Positions 3,001-64,000 of a stretch of 64,000 bases of DNA are shown one piece after another. The position numbers were made by a program, and so were the translations under genes. Position 1 is the stretch's first letter. The number at the start of each line of letters is the position of its first letter. Source of the stretch: a virus (taxonomy: Duplodnaviria; Caudoviricetes). The stretch is taken from the IMG/VR virus record IMGVR_UViG_3300031555_001437; one strand, 5' to 3'. Under the pieces are notes generated by a model. The model did not search any database and was not told the DNA's origin. It saw nothing but the letters and a program-made list of their open reading frames with translations.

Positions 3001-5010
3001 TTGATGAAAGGCGAAGATGGAAAAGATGGTAAGACTTACTATACATGGGTTAAATATGCCGACGATGCATCAGGTACTAATATGTCAAACGACCCGACGG
3101 GTAAAGAATATATCGGTTTGGCGCACAATAAGGAAACTCCCACAGAAAGCACGAATGCTTCTGATTACTCATGGGCGTTGTTCAAAGGCTCTGATGGTGT
3201 AGACGGAACCGATGGTAAGGACGGCGAGACTCCTTACATTAAAGAGAGTTATTGGTGGATTGGCGCTACCAACACAAACATTAAAGCCGAAGGAGTAGAT
3301 GGCGCAGACGGCCAGAATGGCGACACTCCTTACATTAAAGATGGCTATTGGTGGATTGGTGATGTCAATACTAACATTCAGGCAGAAGGTAAGGACGGCC
3401 AAGATGGTAAGGATGGAAACAACGGGTCTACCGTTAAAGTGGAGTACCTGTATTATAGCAAACAAGATTCGAGTGCTCCATCCAAACCAGTATATCCTGG
3501 GAACGCATTGACGTTGGGATGGAGTTTTGAGCCGCAGAGTGCATCGCTGTCGTCCCCATATGTGTTTGTATCTCAATGTACGGTAATCGACGATGTGTAT
3601 GGTACTTGGTCAACTCCTACGTGTTGGGCGAAGTATGGGATAGATGGTAAGAACGGCAGTGATGCAAGTGTAACAACCATCAATATGTTTAATGCTGTTA
3701 CGAACAATGGGGCAAAGCAAGGATGTTTTGAGCTTGACAATGGTGACTTGGCTATTAATGCTTCGTATATCAAGTCTGGGCAGATTGATACAAGCTTGCT
3801 AAACGTAGATGAAATTATTAGTTCTGGAAAAATTGCTGTTATGTCGGAAATTCCAACTACAACCAGTGATTTAACCAATGACAGCGGCTTTGCATATACT
3901 TCAGATATCCCAACGGATACTCAGATTACTATTATTACGGGCGAGTACATTAAAACTGCAAGTATATATGCACAAAACTTAGAGGTCGATGCGGCTCATA
4001 TCAAGGGTTCTTTAACTATAGGACAACTACCAGATACTGTTGCTGAAAAATCAGATGTGCCAACCAAAACCAGTGATCTAACAAATGATAGTGGATTCCA
4101 GAATGCGAGTGAAGTTACAACTATTACAAATGACACGATTTCTACCACAAACGTTGTTGCACAAAATTTAACAGTCAAGGCGGCGAATATTGACGGACAG
4201 CTTACGGCAGATCAGATTAATGCGGATGGTATTAGTGCAAATAATGCCAACATAAGCGGAACGTTGACTGCTGGTAATGGTAGTTTTATTGGTCCTTTTA
4301 ATATATATGAAGATGGCATGGGAGCAGTTGGCGACTATGGAATGTCTGGAACATGGATTAGTAAACAGGGAGTGACTTGTGACAAACTAACTGCTGAGTC
4401 TGCTGAGATTAATGGAGGTAGTATTACGGCAAGTAGCGGTAGTTTAAGCGGCATGACTAGCATATCTACGGATTGGGTAGCTATTGATAGCAATAGTGTC
4501 AGCATTAGACACCCCGACGATCCATATCATTTTTGGTATCTTAGTATGTCGGCAGGAGATTCGTCTGCGTCTATTGGTGGTACTGGAGGGTCAATAAGCT
4601 TTGGGTCTGTAGTAACTCTTAATGGCACATGGGCAGCTTCGTCGTGTCTTGGGACATCTTCTGATGAAAGGGTTAAAAATAGCATACAGTCAATATCAAC
4701 CGACGAACGCTACGATGTAATGTTTGATGCTCTTGCTCCATCTGTCTACAAGTATAATGATGGAACTAGCGGAAGAACACACACTGGCTATATTGCTCAG
4801 GATGTTCTTGCTGCTGTGGAATCGGCGGGGCTAACAAGTACGGATTTTGCTGGTTATATAAAAGCTCAAACAATAAATCCAGAAACTGGTGAAGAAACAG
4901 AAACTTGCTATTTACGTTATGAGGAGTTCATTGCGTTGAACACCGCCCAAATTCAAAAGCTCAAGGCTCGTGTTGCCGAGTTGGAAGCAAAATTATTAGG
5001 AGACGCATAA
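1..5010 (+). CDS. Tail fibre / receptor-binding protein with collagen-like and tandem beta-repeat modules and C-terminal intramolecular chaperone (peptidase S74-like); 5'-truncated by window edge
   Basis: Frame is open from nt 1 (YTDASKPDTVTYTYAKQG...). It has repeated G-x-D-G-x-D-G linkers and YLWTKTTFSDG repeats, and ends in SSDERVKNSI...HTGYIAQDV...LRYEEFIAL...IQKLKARVAELE, the typical S74 chaperone plus coiled coil. Confidence 0.85.
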   Translation, partial: YTDASKPDTVTYTYAKQGADGQPGVAGTSVTVISILYQVGSSATQAPTGTNWSQNVVAVPQGKYLWSKTTFSDGNVAYGVSRQGQDGLEGSSIVWKGELSARPASGEKNWVYKDAEDGIVYICTGNGLWEPMVLDGNDGADGAPGTNGLSVFITYNDSATTPNTPTGNGTSNGWHTNATSSAIWMSQKVAKDAASGSWGAPIKIQGKDGKDGVGVSSTTVSYGTSTSATTQPTSWQSTMPNVTDGHYLWTRTITDYTDSSVADTVTYTYVKQGSKGETGSPGTSVTVTSIQYQAGESSTTAPTGTWSDTIVSAAEGKYLWTKTTFSDGKVAYGVAKQGVSGKDGSGIKKVNTHLRSYPLAWWKEHADPECTDVNWTTGTSYDNSHIKQGDTIYIVGVASDVLSASGTAVTVTLYGVAQSITSSNVTIVPSHLITSGEKGDGGKDGVGVKSSTVTYGVSDSASVKPTSWGSSMPVIGENQYLWTCTVIDYTDASIPDTVTYTYAKQGAKGETGSPGTSVKVSSIQYQAGTSATVEPTGNWSNNVVPVNEGQYLWTKTTFSDGNVAYGVAKQGTSGQKGDDAPKVTKVTKQYYLSSSSTSLTGGSWSTSPSDFTKGRYMWTRDVYSMSDGSTINGEPVIDKTFTTISGWCSANNMTLIDGANIATGTIDAEQIAAKAIKADKVDVDGVITAAEGDIKKLASEEITSTYVTAQNLKVKAANVEDKLTATQIDVTGLLTAAEGDIKNLVSETIAVTELNADNLTSGTINASVVDVTNLSADNITSGAIDASVIDVTNLDADNITTGAISFNGGDYYISVTGDSGNYLVLPGLKISQEKAQFSGSIDVNKNFIVDEYGNVTLNGSISWGAGSSPTQIVYARDAIAAPESGTQLSDFPATDADGWHTSFSQTYDYFASYTYDGGKTWTDAVNIQGKDGSKPYVEDGYWYVDGVSTGVQVTYYTWVKYADTPTSGMSNIPDGKAYIGLAHNKTSTEASEDYDDYTWSLMKGEDGKDGKTYYTWVKYADDASGTNMSNDPTGKEYIGLAHNKETPTESTNASDYSWALFKGSDGVDGTDGKDGETPYIKESYWWIGATNTNIKAEGVDGADGQNGDTPYIKDGYWWIGDVNTNIQAEGKDGQDGKDGNNGSTVKVEYLYYSKQDSSAPSKPVYPGNALTLGWSFEPQSASLSSPYVFVSQCTVIDDVYGTWSTPTCWAKYGIDGKNGSDASVTTINMFNAVTNNGAKQGCFELDNGDLAINASYIKSGQIDTSLLNVDEIISSGKIAVMSEIPTTTSDLTNDSGFAYTSDIPTDTQITIITGEYIKTASIYAQNLEVDAAHIKGSLTIGQLPDTVAEKSDVPTKTSDLTNDSGFQNASEVTTITNDTISTTNVVAQNLTVKAANIDGQLTADQINADGISANNANISGTLTAGNGSFIGPFNIYEDGMGAVGDYGMSGTWISKQGVTCDKLTAESAEINGGSITASSGSLSGMTSISTDWVAIDSNSVSIRHPDDPYHFWYLSMSAGDSSASIGGTGGSISFGSVVTLNGTWAASSCLGTSSDERVKNSIQSISTDERYDVMFDALAPSVYKYNDGTSGRTHTGYIAQDVLAAVESAGLTSTDFAGYIKAQTINPETGEETETCYLRYEEFIALNTAQIQKLKARVAELEAKLLGDA

Positions 5011-45390: not shown

Positions 45391-45507
45391 TAGTCACTTT
45401 TAGATTGGATTCGAACCAATGTCTCCAGTTTATCCGACTGGTGTTCTACCTCTAAACTACATCTCTAATTATTTGCAGAGACAACATGATATTGCTGTAA
45501 GTGACTA
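45391..45507 (-). ncRNA. ACAGCAA-stem RNA E1 enclosing tRNA D/anticodon(GAU)/T arms (Y-RNA-like)
   Basis: TAGTCACTT-ACAGCAA...AAGTGACTA terminal stem; internal TAGTTTAGAGGTAGAAC, CCAGT-CGGATAA-ACTGG, ATTGG-TTCGAAT-CCAAT; no acceptor stem or CCA. Confidence 0.7.
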
Positions 45508-45590: not shown

Positions 45591-45666
45591 TGGTGTGCCC
45601 TGGGAGATTTGAACTCCCGACACCATGATTAAAAGTCATGTGATCTACCATCTGATCTAAGGGCAC
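45591..45666 (-). tRNA. tRNA-Lys(UUU)
   Basis: CATGA-CTTTTAA-TCATG; GTTCAAATC; CCA. Confidence 0.93.
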
Positions 45667-46117: not shown

Positions 46118-46936
46118 TCAATCTTCAATTACTAATACATTTACCTTTTTGCTATACGCAGTACATGCGTCAATCGCAATAACACGTTCATCAACAAACG
46201 GCTCGAAAGATTTACTCCAATCTGCATGGGTCGGCTTCGGAAACTCTTTATACATTAGTTTCAAGTGCGACCAACCCCACGAACAGTGCCAGTGTCCACA
46301 CACGATTTGCTTTGACGGCTCATACACATCGTACCGCCATGCAAGTTCCATGCCGTTAAACCATCTTGCGGTATTCCACTCAGACGCGTGAACTTCTCTC
46401 CAATTCGGATTATACTGATACGTTCTGCCTTTACGATAGTGCGCTGGCATGTCTGTATTTGTCTCACAAGGAATGCTGCCATGGACAAACACATAATGCT
46501 CAGTCTCGTAATAATCAATACTTGCAGGAATGAGAGTTTTGCAGAAATCAGAGTTTAAAACCTTAGAGACGAACTTATTTCGATTTCTCAGAGCCTCGGT
46601 CTCTGTCATGCCGCTAAGTTGCAGCGCACTGCTCCAAGTGCCGTTGCTGACATGATGAGAATAACCCCAGGCAATAGCATCTGCGTACTTGTCGAAACCA
46701 TTAAGCATATCAAGCAACAAATCTTCGTGATTGCCACGTATGAAAATTAGCTCGTCGCGGTTATACAAGTCCATCATGAAGTCTTGCATCTCCACAGACT
46801 CTAGACCCCTGTCAAGAGCATCGCCACAAATGATTAACTTCTTGGGGTCAGAGTCCGTGAAAAAGCCTTTATCGTCAAGAGCTTGTTTGAACTCACTGTA
46901 AAAGGAATGTACGTCTGACGTTACATAATATTTCAT
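46118..46936 (-). CDS. Calcineurin-like metallophosphoesterase
   Basis: SDVH, GDALDRG, RGNHE, VHG, GHWH motifs; ATGA overlap with the upstream TROVE-like gene. Confidence 0.9.
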   Translation of the reverse strand: MKYYVTSDVHSFYSEFKQALDDKGFFTDSDPKKLIICGDALDRGLESVEMQDFMMDLYNRDELIFIRGNHEDLLLDMLNGFDKYADAIAWGYSHHVSNGTWSSALQLSGMTETEALRNRNKFVSKVLNSDFCKTLIPASIDYYETEHYVFVHGSIPCETNTDMPAHYRKGRTYQYNPNWREVHASEWNTARWFNGMELAWRYDVYEPSKQIVCGHWHCSWGWSHLKLMYKEFPKPTHADWSKSFEPFVDERVIAIDACTAYSKKVNVLVIED

Positions 46937-48468
46937 CTAATTGCCTCTTCTACTGCTCTATATCTTTCCGAATTCAGTTGCTCGAGCAAACACTCATACG
47001 GGTCAAGTTTACCCGACATAACCATCTTCGCAACGTTTACAGAGAAACCACTGACAAGGGCTACTCCCAAATCATTCTGCTTAACAGGAATTGCGCCAGT
47101 TCTAGAATTAACATTCCAGAACACGAGCCTTGGGAGTTGATATCCATGTGCTGCGTATTTTTGAGCGATAGCGTCAAAGAGAGTGGCGGTCGGGCGAGAG
47201 CCTCTGCTGGAGTACCAACTGGAAGACGTAGCTGGACCCATCGTTGCACATGAATCGAACTCCATGTCCGAAATGACCAGCACATTCGCAGGCATATCCC
47301 TCTGAGACATGTTGTTGTTAATAGCAGTCTGCAAAATCAAATCGAACGTTGCTTCGATATTAGTGTTTGCAACCTCGTTATGTCTACGTGCGATGGCAAT
47401 CTTCTCTCTCAGAGTAGAAGCGCCGCTAAAATCAACCAGCTGAGGTCTGCTGCTAAAAGTAATGTACTTATCCTTGAACTCGCCAGAAGATCTCTCTGCG
47501 AAGTAAATTGCAAGTGCGTTAGCAACCTCAAGAGCAGTTACACCAGTGTTGCCGCCAACAGTACACTGCATACTACCTGAACCATCTGCAACTACGATTG
47601 TATTACCGCAACCCTGTACAGTGTCTGGAAGAGCCTTCCACATAGCCTCGATACCTTTGTCTACACTGCGGCTATAAGCGTAAGAATGAACTAAGTCATG
47701 AGGAAACAGAACACTTGCATTGATCTTTGCCTCGCCCTTTTCAAGCGCACCAAGATATGCTCTGCGTCTATCCTCGTCGTTGCGTAAGAACGCACCGTTG
47801 TAAATCAAGTTTGCACGGCTAGGAACGGCCTCATAGTCAATATCTCCCCACTGCTTTGCAGACATCTTTCGCTCTACAACATCAATGTAGTTGCGCATCT
47901 TAGACAGCATCTTACGATACTCCTTAGAAGACATACCAAGACCGTTGCGAATAATTTTTGCAAGACGCTTGGTTTCTGCGGAAGACGCGTTTTCGGACGG
48001 AGCCCATTTGCTACAGAGGGAAATTGACTCCTTGTTCTTCATCGCTTGCTTGTCTGCTGCAAGCTGTTCACGAATATGGACAATAATATCATCTTTAAGG
48101 CTAGTATCAAGCAGACACCACAGGTCATCGTATCTGCCATACTCACTTACAAGTCTAATAACTGCCTTGATAATCTCTGGCTTCTCAGTAGCCAGATGCT
48201 TCATAACAATTCTGAACAGGCGTCTCTCGCCAATTCCCTGTCTTGCATCGCGGCAATAGAACAGCCACTTGATTGCGGTTACCTTGTCCTCATAATAAGC
48301 ATCCATAAACTTGTTGATGATTTGCTGCTCAGAAGCGCCTCTTAGAGAGGCCACAGCGAAATTCAAATCGAGCAACTTCTTACCAGTAGTTCGCCACGCT
48401 ACCGCGCCGTTCTCTGTCAAAACCTTTTCATTGTTAAGTTCGTTTTTGATTGCGTTCATGAAACTCAT
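46933..48468 (-). CDS. TROVE/Ro60-like protein with C-terminal vWA domain (DUF2828-type)
   Basis: TENGA, RDARQGIGER, EYGRYDDL, KWAPSE, YRK helical region; vWA MIDAS DGSGSM, ISDMEFD, VFWNV, LVSGFS; GGAGGA RBS supports start at 48468. Confidence 0.82.
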   Translation of the reverse strand: MSFMNAIKNELNNEKVLTENGAVAWRTTGKKLLDLNFAVASLRGASEQQIINKFMDAYYEDKVTAIKWLFYCRDARQGIGERRLFRIVMKHLATEKPEIIKAVIRLVSEYGRYDDLWCLLDTSLKDDIIVHIREQLAADKQAMKNKESISLCSKWAPSENASSAETKRLAKIIRNGLGMSSKEYRKMLSKMRNYIDVVERKMSAKQWGDIDYEAVPSRANLIYNGAFLRNDEDRRRAYLGALEKGEAKINASVLFPHDLVHSYAYSRSVDKGIEAMWKALPDTVQGCGNTIVVADGSGSMQCTVGGNTGVTALEVANALAIYFAERSSGEFKDKYITFSSRPQLVDFSGASTLREKIAIARRHNEVANTNIEATFDLILQTAINNNMSQRDMPANVLVISDMEFDSCATMGPATSSSWYSSRGSRPTATLFDAIAQKYAAHGYQLPRLVFWNVNSRTGAIPVKQNDLGVALVSGFSVNVAKMVMSGKLDPYECLLEQLNSERYRAVEEAIR

Positions 48469-48506
48469 TTTGTTTTCCTCCAAAATTTCATTTATAATAA
48501 CAATCC

Positions 48507-48566
48507 AAGACACATTAGGTTATATAGATTAAAAGTCTATTCCATTAAGATTGCTGTATGTGTCTT
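48507..48566 (-). ncRNA. ACAGCAA-stem RNA E2 carrying a tRNA-Lys-type anticodon stem-loop
   Basis: AAGACACAT-ACAGCAA...ATGTGTCTT; internal ATAGA-CTTTTAA-TCTAT. Confidence 0.7.
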
Positions 48567-48584
48567 AAGATATAGTTGACATGC

Positions 48585-48718
48585 GAGACACCATAATGAT
48601 ATGCATACACGACATTTACTGTCATGCAATTTTAAGCATGCCATTCGTCTTCAATATAGAGTGAACGGCAAGTTCCATTTACTATTATTTTCATCATTAA
48701 AATTGCTGTCGGTGTCTC
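48585..48718 (-). ncRNA. ACAGCAA-stem RNA E3
   Basis: GAGACACCG-ACAGCAA...TGGTGTCTC; internal hairpins TGCCGTTC/GAATGGCA and GCATGACA/TGTCGTGT. Confidence 0.7.
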
Positions 48719-48724
48719 TTTATC

Positions 48725-48793
48725 GAGATGCTATTAAACTATAAAATCATCATTCTTTAATTTCTTAGTAAATAACATTGCTGTTAGCATCTC
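48725..48793 (-). ncRNA. ACAGCAA-stem RNA E4
   Basis: GAGATGCTA-ACAGCAA...TAGCATCTC. Confidence 0.7.
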
Positions 48794-48803
48794 TTTTTTA
48801 AAC

Positions 48804-48862
48804 AAGGCACAATATAATTTCATTCCCAGCAGAAATATGTATTAAGTTGCTGTGTGTGCCTT
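48804..48862 (-). ncRNA. ACAGCAA-stem RNA E5
   Basis: AAGGCACA-C-ACAGCAA...TGTGCCTT. Confidence 0.7.
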
Positions 48863-48867
48863 TAAAG

Positions 48868-48994
48868 TGGTACGCGGACGATGAATCGAACATCGAACAT
48901 TTAGTCCCCATCTTTCTGTGAAAATTGCGGTTAAGGTTTATGTCTAAACCCATTCACAATACTACTAACGCTCTACCAGTTGAGCTATCCGCGC
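48868..48994 (-). ncRNA. tRNA-scaffold RNA E6: anticodon loop replaced by a permuted ACCGCAA-stem module
   Basis: Full acceptor (GCGCGGA/TCCGCGT + ACCA), D and T arms; TTAGT/ACTAA stem encloses TGTGAA-T-GGGTTTA-GACA-TAAACCT-TA-ACCGCAA-TT-TTCACA. Confidence 0.75.
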
Positions 48995-49002
48995 ATATTA
49001 AG

Positions 49003-49120
49003 TGGGGGCTGCAAGACTCGAACTTGCGACCTCGGAGTTACCAGCTCAAATGTAAAATTGCAGTTTAAGATTTTGTCAAACCTCAATTATACGCGCTCTA
49101 TCCAACTGAGCTAAGCCCCC
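49003..49120 (-). ncRNA. tRNA-scaffold RNA E7: Ile-like body, GGU anticodon loop, 44-nt ACTGCAA-stem insertion in the anticodon stem
   Basis: GGGGGCT/AGCCCCC acceptor with no encoded CCA; CG|insert 49048-49091|GAG-CTGGTAA-CTCCG; insert contains TGAGGTTT-GACA-AAATCTTA-A-ACTGCAA. Confidence 0.75.
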
Positions 49121-49162: not shown

Positions 49163-49191
49163 ATTATAACATAATTTACTTAATTTGTCAA
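49163..49191 (-). promoter_or_regulatory. Consensus sigma-A promoter heading the RNA/TROVE/tRNA operon
   Basis: TTGACA-17-TATAAT with TG. Confidence 0.85.
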
Positions 49192-61781: not shown

Positions 61782-63122
61782 TTATCCCATTTTTGCTGCC
61801 GCTTGTAATAAAACATTGTGTTCATTTTGGATTTCTCCATCAATTACCATCTGCAATAACGTGCTCAATGTATGCCCTAATTTTTTCCCAGTTTCATATC
61901 CGATACTAATTAAATCATTACCGTTAATCGCTAAATCTTTAGCGGAAAAACACTCGCCCTCTTGAAGCACATCTTCAAGTAGTTGCTCAATCACATCTAC
62001 TTTTTCAATTCTTTCTGCACCGTATTCTTTCTTTTGCCCTTTGATATCTGCTCTACGTACATTCAAAAGTCTTCTAAATTGTTCTTCTCCAATTTTATTG
62101 AGCCATCTTTTAATGTACTTACGTCCGACTTCAAATGTGGCATCGTGATAATGAACCAATCCTGCTACGTCGTGTCGAGTTTTATTATCAAATCTCAGGC
62201 CTAGCATGATAGCGTCGGCTATCTCAGCACTTACTCTACCATGTCCTTTAAAATGCCTTGTCCCATCCTCGTCGTCTTGGTAACAATGCGGCTTTCCAAA
62301 GTCATGGAACAAAATAGCAAGTCGAGTTGTTAAGTCGCAAGACTCGTCATAACTTAATGCTTTTGCAGTATGGGTGAACACATCATAATCATGATACGGG
62401 TTGTTCTGCTGAAAATCTACGATGTCACACATTTCGGGTATAATTTGGCAAAACACTCCGACATATAAACGTAGAACAAACGGGAATCTGTTGCATATTA
62501 CCATTTTACACAACTCACTATTGACGCGCTCTTTCGAAATATTCTTTAATAACTGTGCGTTTGAAATAATTGCGTACTTCGTGTGTTCCTCTATTTCAAA
62601 GTCCATCTGACAAGAAAATCTCAGCGCCCGCAATACTCTCAATGCGTCTTCTTGAAATCTATCATTTGCATTTCCAACGCATCGAATTTTCATATCTTTG
62701 ATATCATCTAAGCCACCAAACGGGTCTATTAATCCCTCTTCATCATTGTAGGCAATAGCGTTAATAGTGAAGTCTCGTCTACTTAAGTCTTCTTCCAGGT
62801 TTGAAGTAAACGTTACTGTATCTGGTCGACGATTGTCAGAATAATCTCCGTCAATTCGAAATGTGGTTACTTCGTAAGACTCATCACCAACAACTACAGT
62901 TAGAGTGCCGTGCTGCAATCCAGTTTCAATTATTCTTTTATCATTAAAAATATTCAGCATCTCGCTCGGAGTGGCGGACGTGCAAATATCCCAGTCATTA
63001 GGAGTTCGACCAAGAATACTATCTCTTACACATCCTCCAACTATATATGCAGCGTGTCCATGGCTTTGTAACATATGAATTAAATCATTTGCATGGTTTG
63101 GAATGTTAATATTAAATTTCAC
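61782..63122 (-). CDS. cca: CCA-adding enzyme / tRNA nucleotidyltransferase with HD domain
   Basis: VGGCVRD, DWDI, EVTTFR, DLSRRDFTINA, EDALRVLRALRF, HDFGKP. Confidence 0.92.
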   Translation of the reverse strand: MKFNINIPNHANDLIHMLQSHGHAAYIVGGCVRDSILGRTPNDWDICTSATPSEMLNIFNDKRIIETGLQHGTLTVVVGDESYEVTTFRIDGDYSDNRRPDTVTFTSNLEEDLSRRDFTINAIAYNDEEGLIDPFGGLDDIKDMKIRCVGNANDRFQEDALRVLRALRFSCQMDFEIEEHTKYAIISNAQLLKNISKERVNSELCKMVICNRFPFVLRLYVGVFCQIIPEMCDIVDFQQNNPYHDYDVFTHTAKALSYDESCDLTTRLAILFHDFGKPHCYQDDEDGTRHFKGHGRVSAEIADAIMLGLRFDNKTRHDVAGLVHYHDATFEVGRKYIKRWLNKIGEEQFRRLLNVRRADIKGQKKEYGAERIEKVDVIEQLLEDVLQEGECFSAKDLAINGNDLISIGYETGKKLGHTLSTLLQMVIDGEIQNEHNVLLQAAAKMG

Positions 63123-64000
63123 CCTTTACCACCCTTTCATTTACGCTTGCAACAAACTCATTGATTGCTTTATAATTAGGCCCATCTGGAAGATTTGTAT
63201 TTTTCTTTGCGTATTCAAGTCGCTTTTCACATTCATCAACCATTTCATAAAACTCTGCAATTGGCTGCCTATTATCGTCAAGATATTTACCGTTACGAAT
63301 ATCCATCAATAAGTCATGATCTGCATCTCGATATGTAATAATTTGCTCTTTTTCAAGGATATCAAAACACATCATGTAAAGACGTATGAGGTGCATCATG
63401 TGCTTACCCAATTTATCATGACTGATTGCTTTTTCGTTTCTGCTACCAATTTTGCCATACGACTTGACTATTTGCTGCATTTCAGCCCACATACCAGCAT
63501 AATCCCTCAAAGGATAATGGTTCAAATGCGCGTCCATAAAGATCTCGGTATCATATCCGTCTTGCACCGCCTTATCAATATATAATTTGATAGCATCATC
63601 TGGCATAGTTAAGTATCTGTCTTTGAACACATACTGGGCGTTTTCAATTGTTTTATAAATATGCTCTTCGTTTTGTGCTTGACCAACGAGTCGATTTGAT
63701 TTGTTTTCAAGCCTTCTAAGCTGCTGATTAGCATATCCGCCAAAAGAATGAACTGCTCTCTTAGAAAGGAACAGATGTGCGTTGTCAAGAAGTTCGCGCC
63801 CAACAGGAGATATATAAAGATAGTGCTCTGGTTTATTGCCGAGCATCTCAATTGTGTTTGGATTGACATTGCTCAGCAGAGAGACCAACTTGTTAAAAGC
63901 ATAAATAGTGGTGTCTGTTTCTTCGTTGACAAACTGCTCAAAATTCTCGTTAGTCAAAATCTGCATCTTACTATTCAGAGCACACCCACGAATATCCAAG
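63112..64000 (-). CDS. Pol-beta-superfamily nucleotidyltransferase (Nuc-transf/RlaP-like); 5'-truncated
   Basis: DIRG, NPNTIEML, FGGYA..Q, KHMMHLIRL, IRNG, LP..P. Confidence 0.78.
   Translation of the reverse strand, partial: LDIRGCALNSKMQILTNENFEQFVNEETDTTIYAFNKLVSLLSNVNPNTIEMLGNKPEHYLYISPVGRELLDNAHLFLSKRAVHSFGGYANQQLRRLENKSNRLVGQAQNEEHIYKTIENAQYVFKDRYLTMPDDAIKLYIDKAVQDGYDTEIFMDAHLNHYPLRDYAGMWAEMQQIVKSYGKIGSRNEKAISHDKLGKHMMHLIRLYMMCFDILEKEQIITYRDADHDLLMDIRNGKYLDDNRQPIAEFYEMVDECEKRLEYAKKNTNLPDGPNYKAINEFVASVNERVVKGEI

What the first reader, a model, noticed from the sequence alone, without database searches (positions are those of the whole stretch)
48507..48566. E2 displays an isolated tRNA-Lys(UUU) anticodon stem-loop: possible decoy for anticodon nucleases
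Seen: ATAGA-CTTTTAA-TCTAT (48524-48540) is a 5-bp stem with a 7-nt loop identical to that of the phage tRNA-Lys at 45591-45666. Established: tRNA-Lys(UUU) is the target of the anti-phage nucleases PrrC and PARIS AriB. Inference: a sponge or damage sensor. Because it sits ~40 nt upstream of the TROVE start, its cleavage or binding could also regulate that gene.
Basis: partly seen in the sequence, partly recalled or inferred. Interest (0 to 1): 0.7.

Follow-up and report, generated by a model that had tools for sequence, protein, structure and literature searches.

The report
Anticodon-arm mimic on a phage Y-like RNA
A 60-base phage RNA just upstream of a Ro60-like gene carries a conserved copy of a lysine-tRNA anticodon arm on a protein-binding "handle"; it belongs to a widespread, apparently undescribed class of small RNAs that probably present anticodon loops to enzymes acting on tRNA.

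Summary
On the minus strand, 48540-48524 reads ATAGA-CTTTTAA-TCTAT. The loop matches the phage tRNA-Lys(UUU) loop, and 11 bases (GACTTTTAATC) are shared. Shuffled windows give 0.03 such hairpins per 128 kb.

E2 (48566-48507) has four parts: a 9-bp closing stem, an unpaired ACAGCAA, a short middle helix and the anticodon-like hairpin. Orthologues before homologous genes keep all three helices through compensatory changes.

Across 68 distinct relatives, the loop frame is nearly fixed: A31-U39, C32, U33, U or A at 36, A37 and A38. Positions 34-35 vary freely. The triplets seen are UUU, GUU, GCU, UGA and UGU, so the display is not specific to lysine.

The gene product (DUF2828/DUF7788) is predicted to fold like Ro60. 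A search using the RNA motif alone found at least 109 viral loci with Lys-type copies, and about half have the gene nearby.

My best reading is a Y-RNA-like small RNA whose cargo is an anticodon-arm mimic. It most likely acts as bait for host enzymes that read anticodon loops. The nuclease-decoy idea stays plausible but untested. The leader-regulation idea is weakened, because identical elements lie elsewhere in these arrays.

This scan had already noted the handle-RNA system in at least 17 other genomes.

The parts
48507..48566 (-). E2: 60-nt handle RNA with an anticodon-arm mimic (whole element)
   Evidence: Sequence. Fold. Covariance model R1 scores 75.6 bits, E 1e-16. Orthologues aligned.
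48558..48566 (-). Closing stem, 5' strand (AAGACACAT)
   Evidence: Pairs with 48507-48515 at probability 0.88-1.0. In orthologues 7 of 7 pairs are kept and 5 of 7 show compensatory changes.
48551..48557 (-). Unpaired ACAGCAA motif; with the closing stem it forms the 'handle', the inferred docking site for the Ro60-like protein
   Evidence: Invariant in all 29 orthologues. Shared by 443 distinct handle elements in related loci. Also present upstream of the DUF2828 gene of Bacillus phage Tsamsa.
48541..48543 (-). Middle helix 5' strand (GG) plus a single A that sits where tRNA position 26 would be
   Evidence: GG pairs with CC at 48518-48519. The middle helix covaries in orthologues, with all 3 pairs showing changes on both sides. 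The 5' linker is one nucleotide, usually A.
48524..48540 (-). Anticodon-arm mimic: 5-bp stem ATAGA/TCTAT and 7-nt loop CTTTTAA ('anticodon' UUU)
48518..48523 (-). 3' linker ATAA (where the variable region would be) and the CC of the middle helix
   Evidence: The 3' linker is 3-4 nt in nearly all relatives.
48507..48515 (-). Closing stem, 3' strand (ATGTGTCTT)
46933..48468 (-). Gene for the Ro60-like protein (511 aa; Pfam DUF2828 + DUF7788, vWA-like C-terminal half). The Shine-Dalgarno GGAGG lies at 48477-48481.
   Evidence: Pfam. AlphaFold model with pLDDT 87.5. Its best PDB matches are all Ro60 (2i91, 1yvp, 9kop, 9l5y, 2nvo), over the full length, TM about 0.6.
49163..49191 (-). Consensus sigma-70-type promoter (12/12 match, extended -10) at the head of the RNA array that ends with E2
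   Evidence: No terminator-like site was found on the minus strand between it and the gene.
48585..48860 (-). Three further handle + ACAGCAA hairpin RNAs (48806-48860, 48725-48793, 48585-48718), none with an anticodon-like loop
   Evidence: Sequence, folds, R1 hits of 38 and 32 bits.
48871..49120 (-). Two tRNA-like scaffolds, each with an insert of about 50 nt in the anticodon region
   Evidence: Rfam tRNA scores 47.9 and 45.7 bits. ARAGORN does not call them.
45392..45506 (-). E1: handle + ACAGCAA closing a permuted tRNA-like body that has an anticodon arm (loop CGGATAA) and a T arm
   Evidence: Rfam tRNA partial match, 44.8 bits, model positions 7-64. Fold.
45591..45666 (-). Canonical phage tRNA-Lys(UUU), the comparator for the E2 loop

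Best explanation
E2 is a small non-coding RNA of the 'closing stem + ACAGCAA' family that travels with phage Ro60-like (DUF2828/DUF7788) proteins. It has two modules.

The handle is the 9-bp closing stem with the unpaired ACAGCAA. It is the likely docking site for the ring protein, as the bulged stem of a Y RNA is for Ro60.

The apical module is a selected mimic of a tRNA anticodon arm. It has a 5-bp stem, a 7-nt loop with C32, U33, U36, A37 and A38, an A31-U39 closing pair, one nucleotide where position 26 would be, and 3-4 nt where the variable region would be.

I think the particle presents this arm as bait to a host factor that reads the 3' side of the anticodon loop (U36-A37-A38-U39) of tRNAs decoding A-starting codons. 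The most likely such factor is an anti-phage anticodon nuclease. Binding would titrate it, or report its activity.

Shown here: the mimic, its conservation and covariation, the Ro60-like fold, and the RNA-gene association. Inferred: RNA-protein binding. Hypothesised: the identity of the factor and the decoy or sensor action.
For: 1. The hairpin is real and beyond chance.

2. In 29 orthologues aligned without structural input, 94% of cells pair, 12 of 15 pairs show compensatory changes, and 0 of 500 shuffles reach this. In the apical stem, 4 of 5 pairs covary.

3. In 68 distinct mini-elements found with covariance model R1, the loop frame is nearly fixed: C32 90%, U33 87%, A37 97%, A38 97%, A31-U39 84%, and position 36 is U in 74% and A in 19%. 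Positions 34-35 vary. Changes between close relatives concentrate in positions 34-36 (11 of 60 changes against 3 of 63 columns, p = 1e-4).

4. The triplet repertoire differs from that of the phages' real tRNA genes. UUU makes up 32% of mini-elements against 6% of real tRNAs, and GUU 16% against 2.5%. Leu, Met, Arg, Pro and Gly are almost absent. It overlaps the target set of known nucleases: AriB cleaves Lys-UUU, Thr-UGU and Asn-GUU, which share a UAAU motif at positions 36-39, and PrrC reads the Lys anticodon stem-loop (PMC12409363; PMC1484252).

5. The protein model matches Ro60 over its full length.

6. The handle is found next to DUF2828 genes down to 39% protein identity, as in Bacillus phage Tsamsa. 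A scan seeded only by the RNA motif found at least 109 viral loci. Of 118 matches, 111 had both stems, and 53 of the 109 loci had the gene within about 9 kb.

7. Several phages carry two or three mini-elements with different triplets.

8. Precedent: Y RNAs dock on Ro60, tether other proteins and mimic tRNA parts (PMC4201824; PMC12135203).
Against: - There is no expression, binding or cleavage data.
- The apical stem is thermodynamically weak: -0.5 kcal/mol alone and pairing probability about 0.45.
- Variability at positions 34-35 is no greater than in the least constrained linker columns. It may reflect lack of constraint rather than selection for new specificities.
- AriB is proposed to make base-specific D-loop contacts that E2 cannot offer.
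- Many last-position handle RNAs, and those of phage Tsamsa, have no anticodon mimic. The mimic is therefore optional cargo.
- The neighbouring phosphoesterase, which suggested RNA end-healing, is not conserved next to the gene in 171 related loci.
- The host and its defence systems are unknown.
Confidence: 0.35

Rival explanations
1. Adaptor rather than decoy. The anticodon-arm mimic recruits a tRNA-modifying or tRNA-repair enzyme to the Ro60-like particle, as Y RNA tethers PNPase to Ro60. Candidates are the t6A37 or i6A37 machinery, which read U36-A37 and A36-A37-A38, a ligase, or the CCA enzyme. Alternatively it gates the ring's access to damaged tRNAs.
For: The conserved positions are 36-38 (U/A-A-A), not the whole triplet. 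From my own knowledge, these are the identity elements of t6A and i6A enzymes. YrlA tRNA-like domains are modified by tRNA enzymes in vivo (PMC4201824). The window also encodes a CCA-adding enzyme and an RlaP-family nucleotidyltransferase, and a phosphoesterase is coupled to the gene.
Against: The phosphoesterase is not a conserved neighbour. No RNA ligase was seen among the ORFs scanned. The enrichment for Lys and Asn over other A37-A38 tRNAs such as Leu-UAA, Met and Arg-UCU is not predicted by a t6A or i6A enzyme alone.
Confidence: 0.2
2. Cis-acting leader. E2 is mainly an operator in the 5' UTR of the Ro60-like mRNA. The protein binds its own handle 38 nt before the start codon and autoregulates translation or mRNA processing. 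The anticodon hairpin is secondary, or serves as a cleavage-sensitive switch.
For: A handle element lies within 90 nt upstream of the start codon in most related loci (121 loci, 65 distinct sequences). One promoter heads the array and no terminator separates E2 from the gene. A second small hairpin between E2 and the Shine-Dalgarno sequence recurs in several related loci, as judged by eye only.
Against: The same mini-elements with anticodon hairpins occur at other positions, including directly downstream of the gene and several hundred bases upstream. About half of the last-position elements have no anticodon hairpin, so the hairpin is not needed for a leader role. The predicted fold does not sequester the Shine-Dalgarno sequence in E2.
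Confidence: 0.15
3. Inert heirloom. Handle RNAs arose from tRNA genes, and E2 keeps an anticodon arm only as a structural spacer. Only the handle is functional, and the loop frame is kept because it makes a stable U-turn hairpin.
For: There is a continuum from full permuted tRNA mimics (E1; handle + anticodon arm + T arm) down to anticodon arm only. Positions 34-35 drift like unconstrained linkers. Other handle RNAs work with unrelated inserts.
Against: Seven positions of the arm (31, 32, 33, 36, 37, 38, 39) stay nearly invariant across 68 distinct sequences, while the stem covaries and the linkers diverge. The triplet repertoire is skewed relative to the phages' tRNA genes. C32 and A31-U39 are more uniform than in the real tRNAs: A31-U39 is 84% against 39%. 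A mere spacer would not hold a thermodynamically weak hairpin.
Confidence: 0.15
4. Chance hairpin in AT-rich intergenic DNA.
For: The region is only 36% G+C and the stem has a single G-C pair.
Against: Shuffles give 0.03 expected per window. The hairpin is conserved with covariation. It recurs in at least 109 independent viral loci.
Confidence: 0.01

Closest known systems
Bacterial and phage Y RNAs of the YrlA type with Ro60/Rsr (Rfam RF02553; Chen et al. 2014, PMC4201824)
   Same: A small RNA encoded next to, and on the same strand as, a Ro60-fold protein. Its 5' and 3' ends pair into a stem with a conserved unpaired motif. The distal part mimics part of a tRNA. Several copies occur per locus.
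   Different: The protein belongs to a different sequence family: DUF2828/DUF7788, with no Pfam TROVE hit and no sequence match in the PDB. The conserved motif is ACAGCAA, not GNCGAA. YrlA mimics the D, T and acceptor arms and lacks an anticodon arm, whereas E2 is the reverse, an anticodon arm only. Rfam YrlA does not match E2.
Deinococcus radiodurans Yrn1
   Same: Chen et al. note that it can be drawn with an 'anticodon arm' of 5 bp.
   Different: Its loop has 6 nt, and no conserved U33/A37/A38 frame has been reported. E2 and its relatives keep a canonical 7-nt loop frame.
Thermus phage phiLo Ro60 with Yrl1/Yrl2 (PMC12135203)
   Same: A phage-encoded Ro60-fold protein with Y-like RNAs just upstream of its gene, proposed to hijack a host enzyme (PNPase) in counter-defence. 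It is among the structural matches of the window's protein (9kop, 9l5y).
   Different: Its RNAs use the CGAA motif, and the passages read do not mention a tRNA anticodon mimic.
Phage tRNA-based escape from anticodon nucleases (T5 tRNA-Lys/Thr/Asn variants against PARIS AriB, PMC12409363; T4 against PrrC, PMC1484252)
   Same: It involves the same tRNA identities (Lys-UUU, Thr-UGU, Asn-GUU) and the same loop segment (UAAU at positions 36-39) that is conserved in E2-type RNAs.
   Different: Those are complete, functional tRNAs that replace cleaved host tRNAs. E2 has no acceptor, D or T arm and cannot be charged. Any action would be as bait, not as a replacement.
RNA anti-CRISPRs (phage-encoded solitary repeat mimics that sequester Cas proteins; cited from my own knowledge)
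   Same: The concept of a phage small RNA that copies the recognition element of a host RNA in order to capture a defence protein.
   Different: The target and structure are unrelated, and no protein scaffold is involved.

Membership tests
Y RNA (Ro60-associated ncRNA), broad sense | Encoded close to, and on the same strand as, a Ro60-fold protein gene | tested here: met
   E2 ends 38 nt upstream of the gene. The protein model matches Ro60 structures over its full length. The RNA-gene link holds in a scan seeded by the RNA motif alone.
Y RNA (Ro60-associated ncRNA), broad sense | 5' and 3' ends form a stem that carries a conserved unpaired or bulged protein-binding motif | tested here: met
   The closing stem covaries and ACAGCAA is invariant. 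The motif sequence differs from that of known Y RNAs.
Y RNA (Ro60-associated ncRNA), broad sense | Physically bound by the Ro60 protein | not testable with these tools
   No RNA-protein prediction or binding data are available.
YrlA (Rfam RF02553) | Matches the family covariance model: GNCGAA motif plus a tRNA-like domain with D, T and acceptor-like arms | tested here: not met
   No RF02553 match overlaps E2 at E <= 1. The only weak hit (22 bits against a gathering score of 69) lies at 48947-49053. E2 has no D or T arm.
tRNA (Rfam RF00005) | Cloverleaf with acceptor, D, anticodon and T arms | tested here: not met
   Neither ARAGORN nor Rfam tRNA hits 48507-48566. Only the anticodon arm is present.
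tRNA anticodon arm (as a mimic, not as membership) | 5-bp stem, 7-nt loop, pyrimidine at 32, U33, purine at 37 | tested here: met
   E2 has ATAGA/TCTAT and the loop C-U-UUU-A-A. In 68 relatives C32 is 90%, U33 87% and A37 97%. The frame is comparable to that of 162 real tRNAs from the same loci.
Ro60 / TROVE protein family (for the neighbouring gene) | Pfam TROVE (PF05731) sequence match | tested here: not met
   Only DUF2828, DUF7788 and a weak VWA_2 match were found, even at E <= 10. A profile search found no sequence hit in the PDB.
Ro60 / TROVE protein family (for the neighbouring gene) | HEAT-repeat ring plus a C-terminal vWA domain (fold) | tested here: met
   The top 12 listed Foldseek matches are Ro60 structures, with about 570 aligned columns and TM 0.5-0.6. 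The model has pLDDT 87.5.
   Only indirect evidence exists: the triplet repertoire and the UAAU segment match the AriB and PrrC targets, and the D-loop contact proposed for AriB is absent.

The most novel reading that the evidence does not exclude
Phages use a Ro60-like ring loaded with interchangeable 'anticodon display' RNAs as a programmable sponge or sensor for host anticodon nucleases. The handle fixes the RNA to the ring. The displayed loop frame (U36-A37-A38-U39) and the swappable triplet set which nuclease is caught. Phages change or stack triplets (Lys, Asn, Thr, Ser and others) as host defences change. This would be an RNA-based counter-defence against tRNA-cleaving immunity and a first function for the DUF2828 branch of Ro60 proteins.
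Probability: 0.2. Interest if true: 0.85.

Novelty: new variant of a known kind. Interest (0 to 1): 0.66.

Why it matters
Ro60 and Y RNAs are conserved from bacteria to humans, yet what the tRNA-like parts of bacterial Y RNAs are for is still unsettled.

Here a distinct Ro60-like family, found in hundreds of cultured phages (706 GenBank phage records), comes with RNAs that display only the anticodon arm. The loop frame is fixed and the triplet is swappable.

That gives a sharply testable hypothesis linking Ro-like particles to the current arms race over tRNA, which involves PrrC, RloC, PARIS, Cas13 and phage tRNA genes. It also provides simple reagents: a 60-nt RNA, one protein, and point mutants in the loop or the handle.

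If the bait idea is wrong, the family still marks an uncatalogued class of phage non-coding RNA that annotation pipelines miss. Neither Rfam nor ARAGORN sees it.

Tried and rejected
- DNA similarity to GenBank phages (blastn, distant mode) found nothing for the array.
- No whole genome is held for this window.
No read evidence could be obtained.
- Profile search of the protein family against PDB sequences found nothing. The Ro60 relation appears only at the fold level.
- I tested whether the coupled calcineurin-like phosphoesterase is a conserved partner, which would support an RNA end-healing module. It is not found in any of 171 related loci, so I dropped it from the system.
- I looked for a link between the displayed triplet and the tRNA genes beside the locus. 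The flanks are too short to give a full tRNA complement. tRNA-Lys(UUU) genes occur beside elements showing UGU or AGU as well as UUU, so no conclusion was drawn.
- I considered positive selection on the triplet. Changes are enriched at positions 34-36 relative to the whole element (p = 1e-4), but they are no more frequent than in the most variable linker columns. I report hypervariability, not proven diversifying selection.
- A literature search for DUF2828 returned only unrelated plant and tardigrade papers. Searches on Y RNA, phage and anticodon decoys found no description of these RNAs. The library is not exhaustive.

Full report
**1. What is there**

All genes in this part of the window run on the minus strand. 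Read on that strand, 48566-48507 is AAGACACAT-ACAGCAA-TCTTAATGG-A-ATAGA-CTTTTAA-TCTAT-ATAA-CC-TA-ATGTGTCTT.

ARAGORN and Rfam place a canonical tRNA-Lys(UUU) at 45591-45666 (-). Its anticodon arm is CATGA-CTTTTAA-TCATG. The 7-nt loops are identical, and so are the two pairs next to the loop, giving 11 shared bases.

E2 ends 38 nt before the ATG (48468) of a 511-aa ORF. A GGAGG lies at 48481-48477.

**2. Is it more than chance?**

In the whole 64-kb window, on both strands, only two hairpins have five Watson-Crick pairs and a CTTTTAA loop: the tRNA-Lys and E2. One hundred dinucleotide-preserving shuffles gave a mean of 0.03.

RNAfold puts the hairpin in the minimum-free-energy structure of E2 and of three divergent orthologues. 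The stem is weak, however: -0.5 kcal/mol in isolation and pairing probability about 0.45. The case therefore rests on comparative evidence.

**3. Homologous loci**

The protein was used to fetch 171 related loci from viral and metagenome collections, at 46-74% protein identity.

In most of them, the last element before the start codon is again a closing stem (AAGACNC.../...GNGTCTT) followed by ACAGCAA. In about half of the distinct sequences the interior carries a 5-bp/7-nt hairpin in the same place. The rest, mostly from human-gut contigs, are short and have no such hairpin.

I aligned 29 orthologues that have the hairpin, using MAFFT with no structural input. I chose these by eye, so the set is not unbiased.

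On this alignment the three-helix structure pairs in 94% of cells. Twelve of 15 pairs show compensatory changes and 0 of 500 shuffles reach the observed values. Sliding the partners by 1-3 columns drops pairing to 31-56%. In the apical stem, 4 of 5 pairs covary. Examples are ATAGA/TCTAT, TTAGA/TCTAA, TAAGA/TCTTA, ATGAA/TTCAT, ACAAA/TTTGT and CTTAA/TTAAG.

**4. What is conserved and what varies**

A covariance model built from that alignment (R1) found 123 matches in 100 sources. Of these, 68 distinct sequences have a 7-nt loop on a stem of at least 4 bp.

| Position | Result in the 68 sequences |
|---|---|
| 32 | C in 90% |
| 33 | U in 87% |
| 36 | U in 74%, A in 19% |
| 37 | A in 97% |
| 38 | A in 97% |
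| Pair 31-39 | A-U in 84% |
| 34 and 35 | vary freely |

The triplets seen are UUU (22), GUU (11), GCU (7), UGA (7), UGU (4), then AGU, GUA and GAU (2 each), plus several seen once.

The same stem, ATAGA/TCTAT, carries UUU in the window and in L012 and L013. It carries AGU in L092, GUU in L034 and GUA in L142.

In near-identical phages (L004-L011), a second mini-element just downstream of the gene reads UGU, GCU or GUU.

Along a minimum spanning tree of close relatives, 11 of 60 changes fall in the three triplet columns (p = 1e-4). Those columns are no more variable than the loosest linker columns, however.

So the frame of an anticodon loop is under constraint and the first two triplet positions are free. 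The display is anticodon-like, not lysine-specific.

A single nucleotide, usually A, precedes the stem, and 3-4 nt follow it before a short covarying middle helix. These sit where tRNA position 26 and the variable region would be.

**5. Relation to real tRNAs**

The same loci contain 162 distinct ARAGORN tRNAs. Their anticodons are dominated by UAA, GCU, CAA and CAU. UUU makes up 6% and GUU 2.5%, and 26% have G or C at position 36.

In the mini-elements, UUU is 32%, GUU is 16%, and G or C at position 36 is 7%. A31-U39 is 84% in the mini-elements against 39% in the real tRNAs. Real tRNA-Ser(GCU) genes mostly have U32, whereas the GCU mini-elements have C32.

The mini-elements are therefore not recent copies of the neighbouring tRNA genes. 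They follow their own consensus, GA-CU-NN-U-AA-UC, which is the tRNA-Lys-type frame.

**6. The family and its protein**

Pfam assigns the ORF to DUF2828 + DUF7788 with a weak vWA signal. There is no TROVE hit and no sequence hit in the PDB.

An AlphaFold model from a 37-sequence alignment (pLDDT 87.5) has Ro60 structures as its top 12 listed Foldseek matches. These include Xenopus, human and Deinococcus Ro60 and Thermus phage phiLo Ro60, aligned over the full length at TM about 0.5-0.6. 'TROVE-like' is thus supported by fold, not by sequence.

The protein family occurs in 706 GenBank phage records. In Bacillus phage Tsamsa (39% identity), the gap between the tRNA cluster and the gene holds two handle + ACAGCAA RNAs, one with its own promoter. 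Neither has an anticodon hairpin.

Across the 171 loci I counted 443 distinct handle elements. Their interiors range from nothing, through an anticodon arm only and an anticodon arm plus T arm, to nearly whole permuted tRNAs. E1 of this window is of the last kind.

Of 118 matches, 111 had both the apical stem and a 6-bp handle closure. Of the 109 loci with both stems, 53 had a DUF2828 homologue in the roughly 9 kb fetched.

The Lys-type mini-element is therefore widespread and linked to the gene, independently of how I first found it.

**7. Mechanism**

By analogy with Ro60 and Y RNA (PMC4201824; PMC12135203), the handle is the likely docking site and the interior is cargo. E2's cargo is an anticodon arm whose conserved face is positions 31-33 and 36-39.

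The factor it meets should therefore read the loop frame and its 3' side rather than the full triplet.

Two classes fit. The first is anticodon nucleases. AriB of PARIS cleaves Lys-UUU, Thr-UGU and Asn-GUU, which share UAAU at positions 36-39, and PrrC reads the Lys anticodon stem-loop. The second is enzymes that act on A37 next to U36 or A36.

I favour bait for a nuclease, because the repertoire is skewed to Lys, Asn and Thr, and because some phages stack several triplets. This is inference.

Against a PARIS-type target in particular, AriB is proposed to contact the D-loop, which E2 lacks.

Identical elements occur elsewhere in the arrays, and many last-position elements lack the hairpin. A role of the handle as an autoregulatory operator cannot be excluded.

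The coupled phosphoesterase is not a conserved partner.

**8. Known or new**

Rfam 15 has no family matching E2. Full-text searches found no description.

This scan had already noted the handle-RNA/DUF2828 system in at least 17 other genomes, and follow-up agents reached similar readings. Those notes are leads, not evidence.

Relative to the published Ro60/YrlA paradigm this is a new variant. The protein family differs, the motif differs, and the tRNA part that is mimicked is the one YrlA lacks.

**9. Verdict**

The display of an anticodon arm is real and selected. Lysine specificity and leader regulation are not supported. Decoy action is open.
- Approximate probabilities: a selected anticodon-arm mimic 0.9; a trans-acting RNA bound by the Ro60-like protein 0.65; bait or sensor for an anticodon nuclease 0.25-0.35.

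Noticed in passing
window 48475-48506 (-), and the matching stretch in L001, L002, L004, L023, L028, L034, L074, L142: A second, small AU-rich hairpin sits between E2 and the Shine-Dalgarno sequence. It starts with the GG that follows the closing stem (for example GGATTTTA-GTAA-TAAAATC in L001). By eye it recurs with different stem sequences in several related loci. It could be a processing site or a 5' stabiliser for the mRNA.
   Followed up: partly
L004-L011, about 4490-4560 (just downstream of the DUF2828 gene): Nearly identical phages carry a second mini-element whose triplet differs between contigs: UGU, GCU, GUU, one with A38G, and one degenerate. This is a clear case of triplet switching on a conserved background.
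   Followed up: partly
L172 (Bacillus phage vB_BanS-Tsamsa, NC_023007) 3455-3516 and 3844-3906: A cultured Bacillus phage has two unannotated handle + ACAGCAA RNAs in the 610-nt gap between its tRNA cluster and its DUF2828 'RNA-binding protein' gene. The first is preceded by a TTGACA...TATAAT promoter. This would be a tractable experimental system.
   Followed up: partly
window 46118-46936 (-): A calcineurin-like phosphoesterase gene overlaps the stop of the Ro60-like gene. No homologue is found in any of the 171 related loci, so it is a local addition rather than part of the conserved system.
   Followed up: yes
window 48871-48994 and 49003-49120 (-): Two tRNA-shaped RNAs with intact acceptor, D and T arms carry inserts of about 50 nt in the anticodon region. 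Each insert contains a short hairpin followed by CTGCAAT or CCGCAAT. Rfam tRNA scores them at 46-48 bits, and ARAGORN misses them.
   Followed up: no
window 45392-45506 (-): E1 is a handle + ACAGCAA closing a permuted tRNA-like body. It has an anticodon arm (CCAGT-CGGATAA-ACTGG, with G at position 33) and a canonical T arm. It lies inside the tRNA gene cluster, 1.4 kb downstream of the gene.
   Followed up: partly
window 61782-63999 (-): A CCA-adding enzyme (PolyA_pol head + HD) and an RlaP-family nucleotidyltransferase lie side by side. No RNA ligase was seen among the ORFs scanned.
   Followed up: partly
window 48507-48566 (-): Counted from E2's first base, the mimic's stem and loop fall on nucleotides 27-31, 32-38 and 39-43, the same numbers as in a tRNA. 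Related elements vary in length, so this may be coincidence.
   Followed up: no
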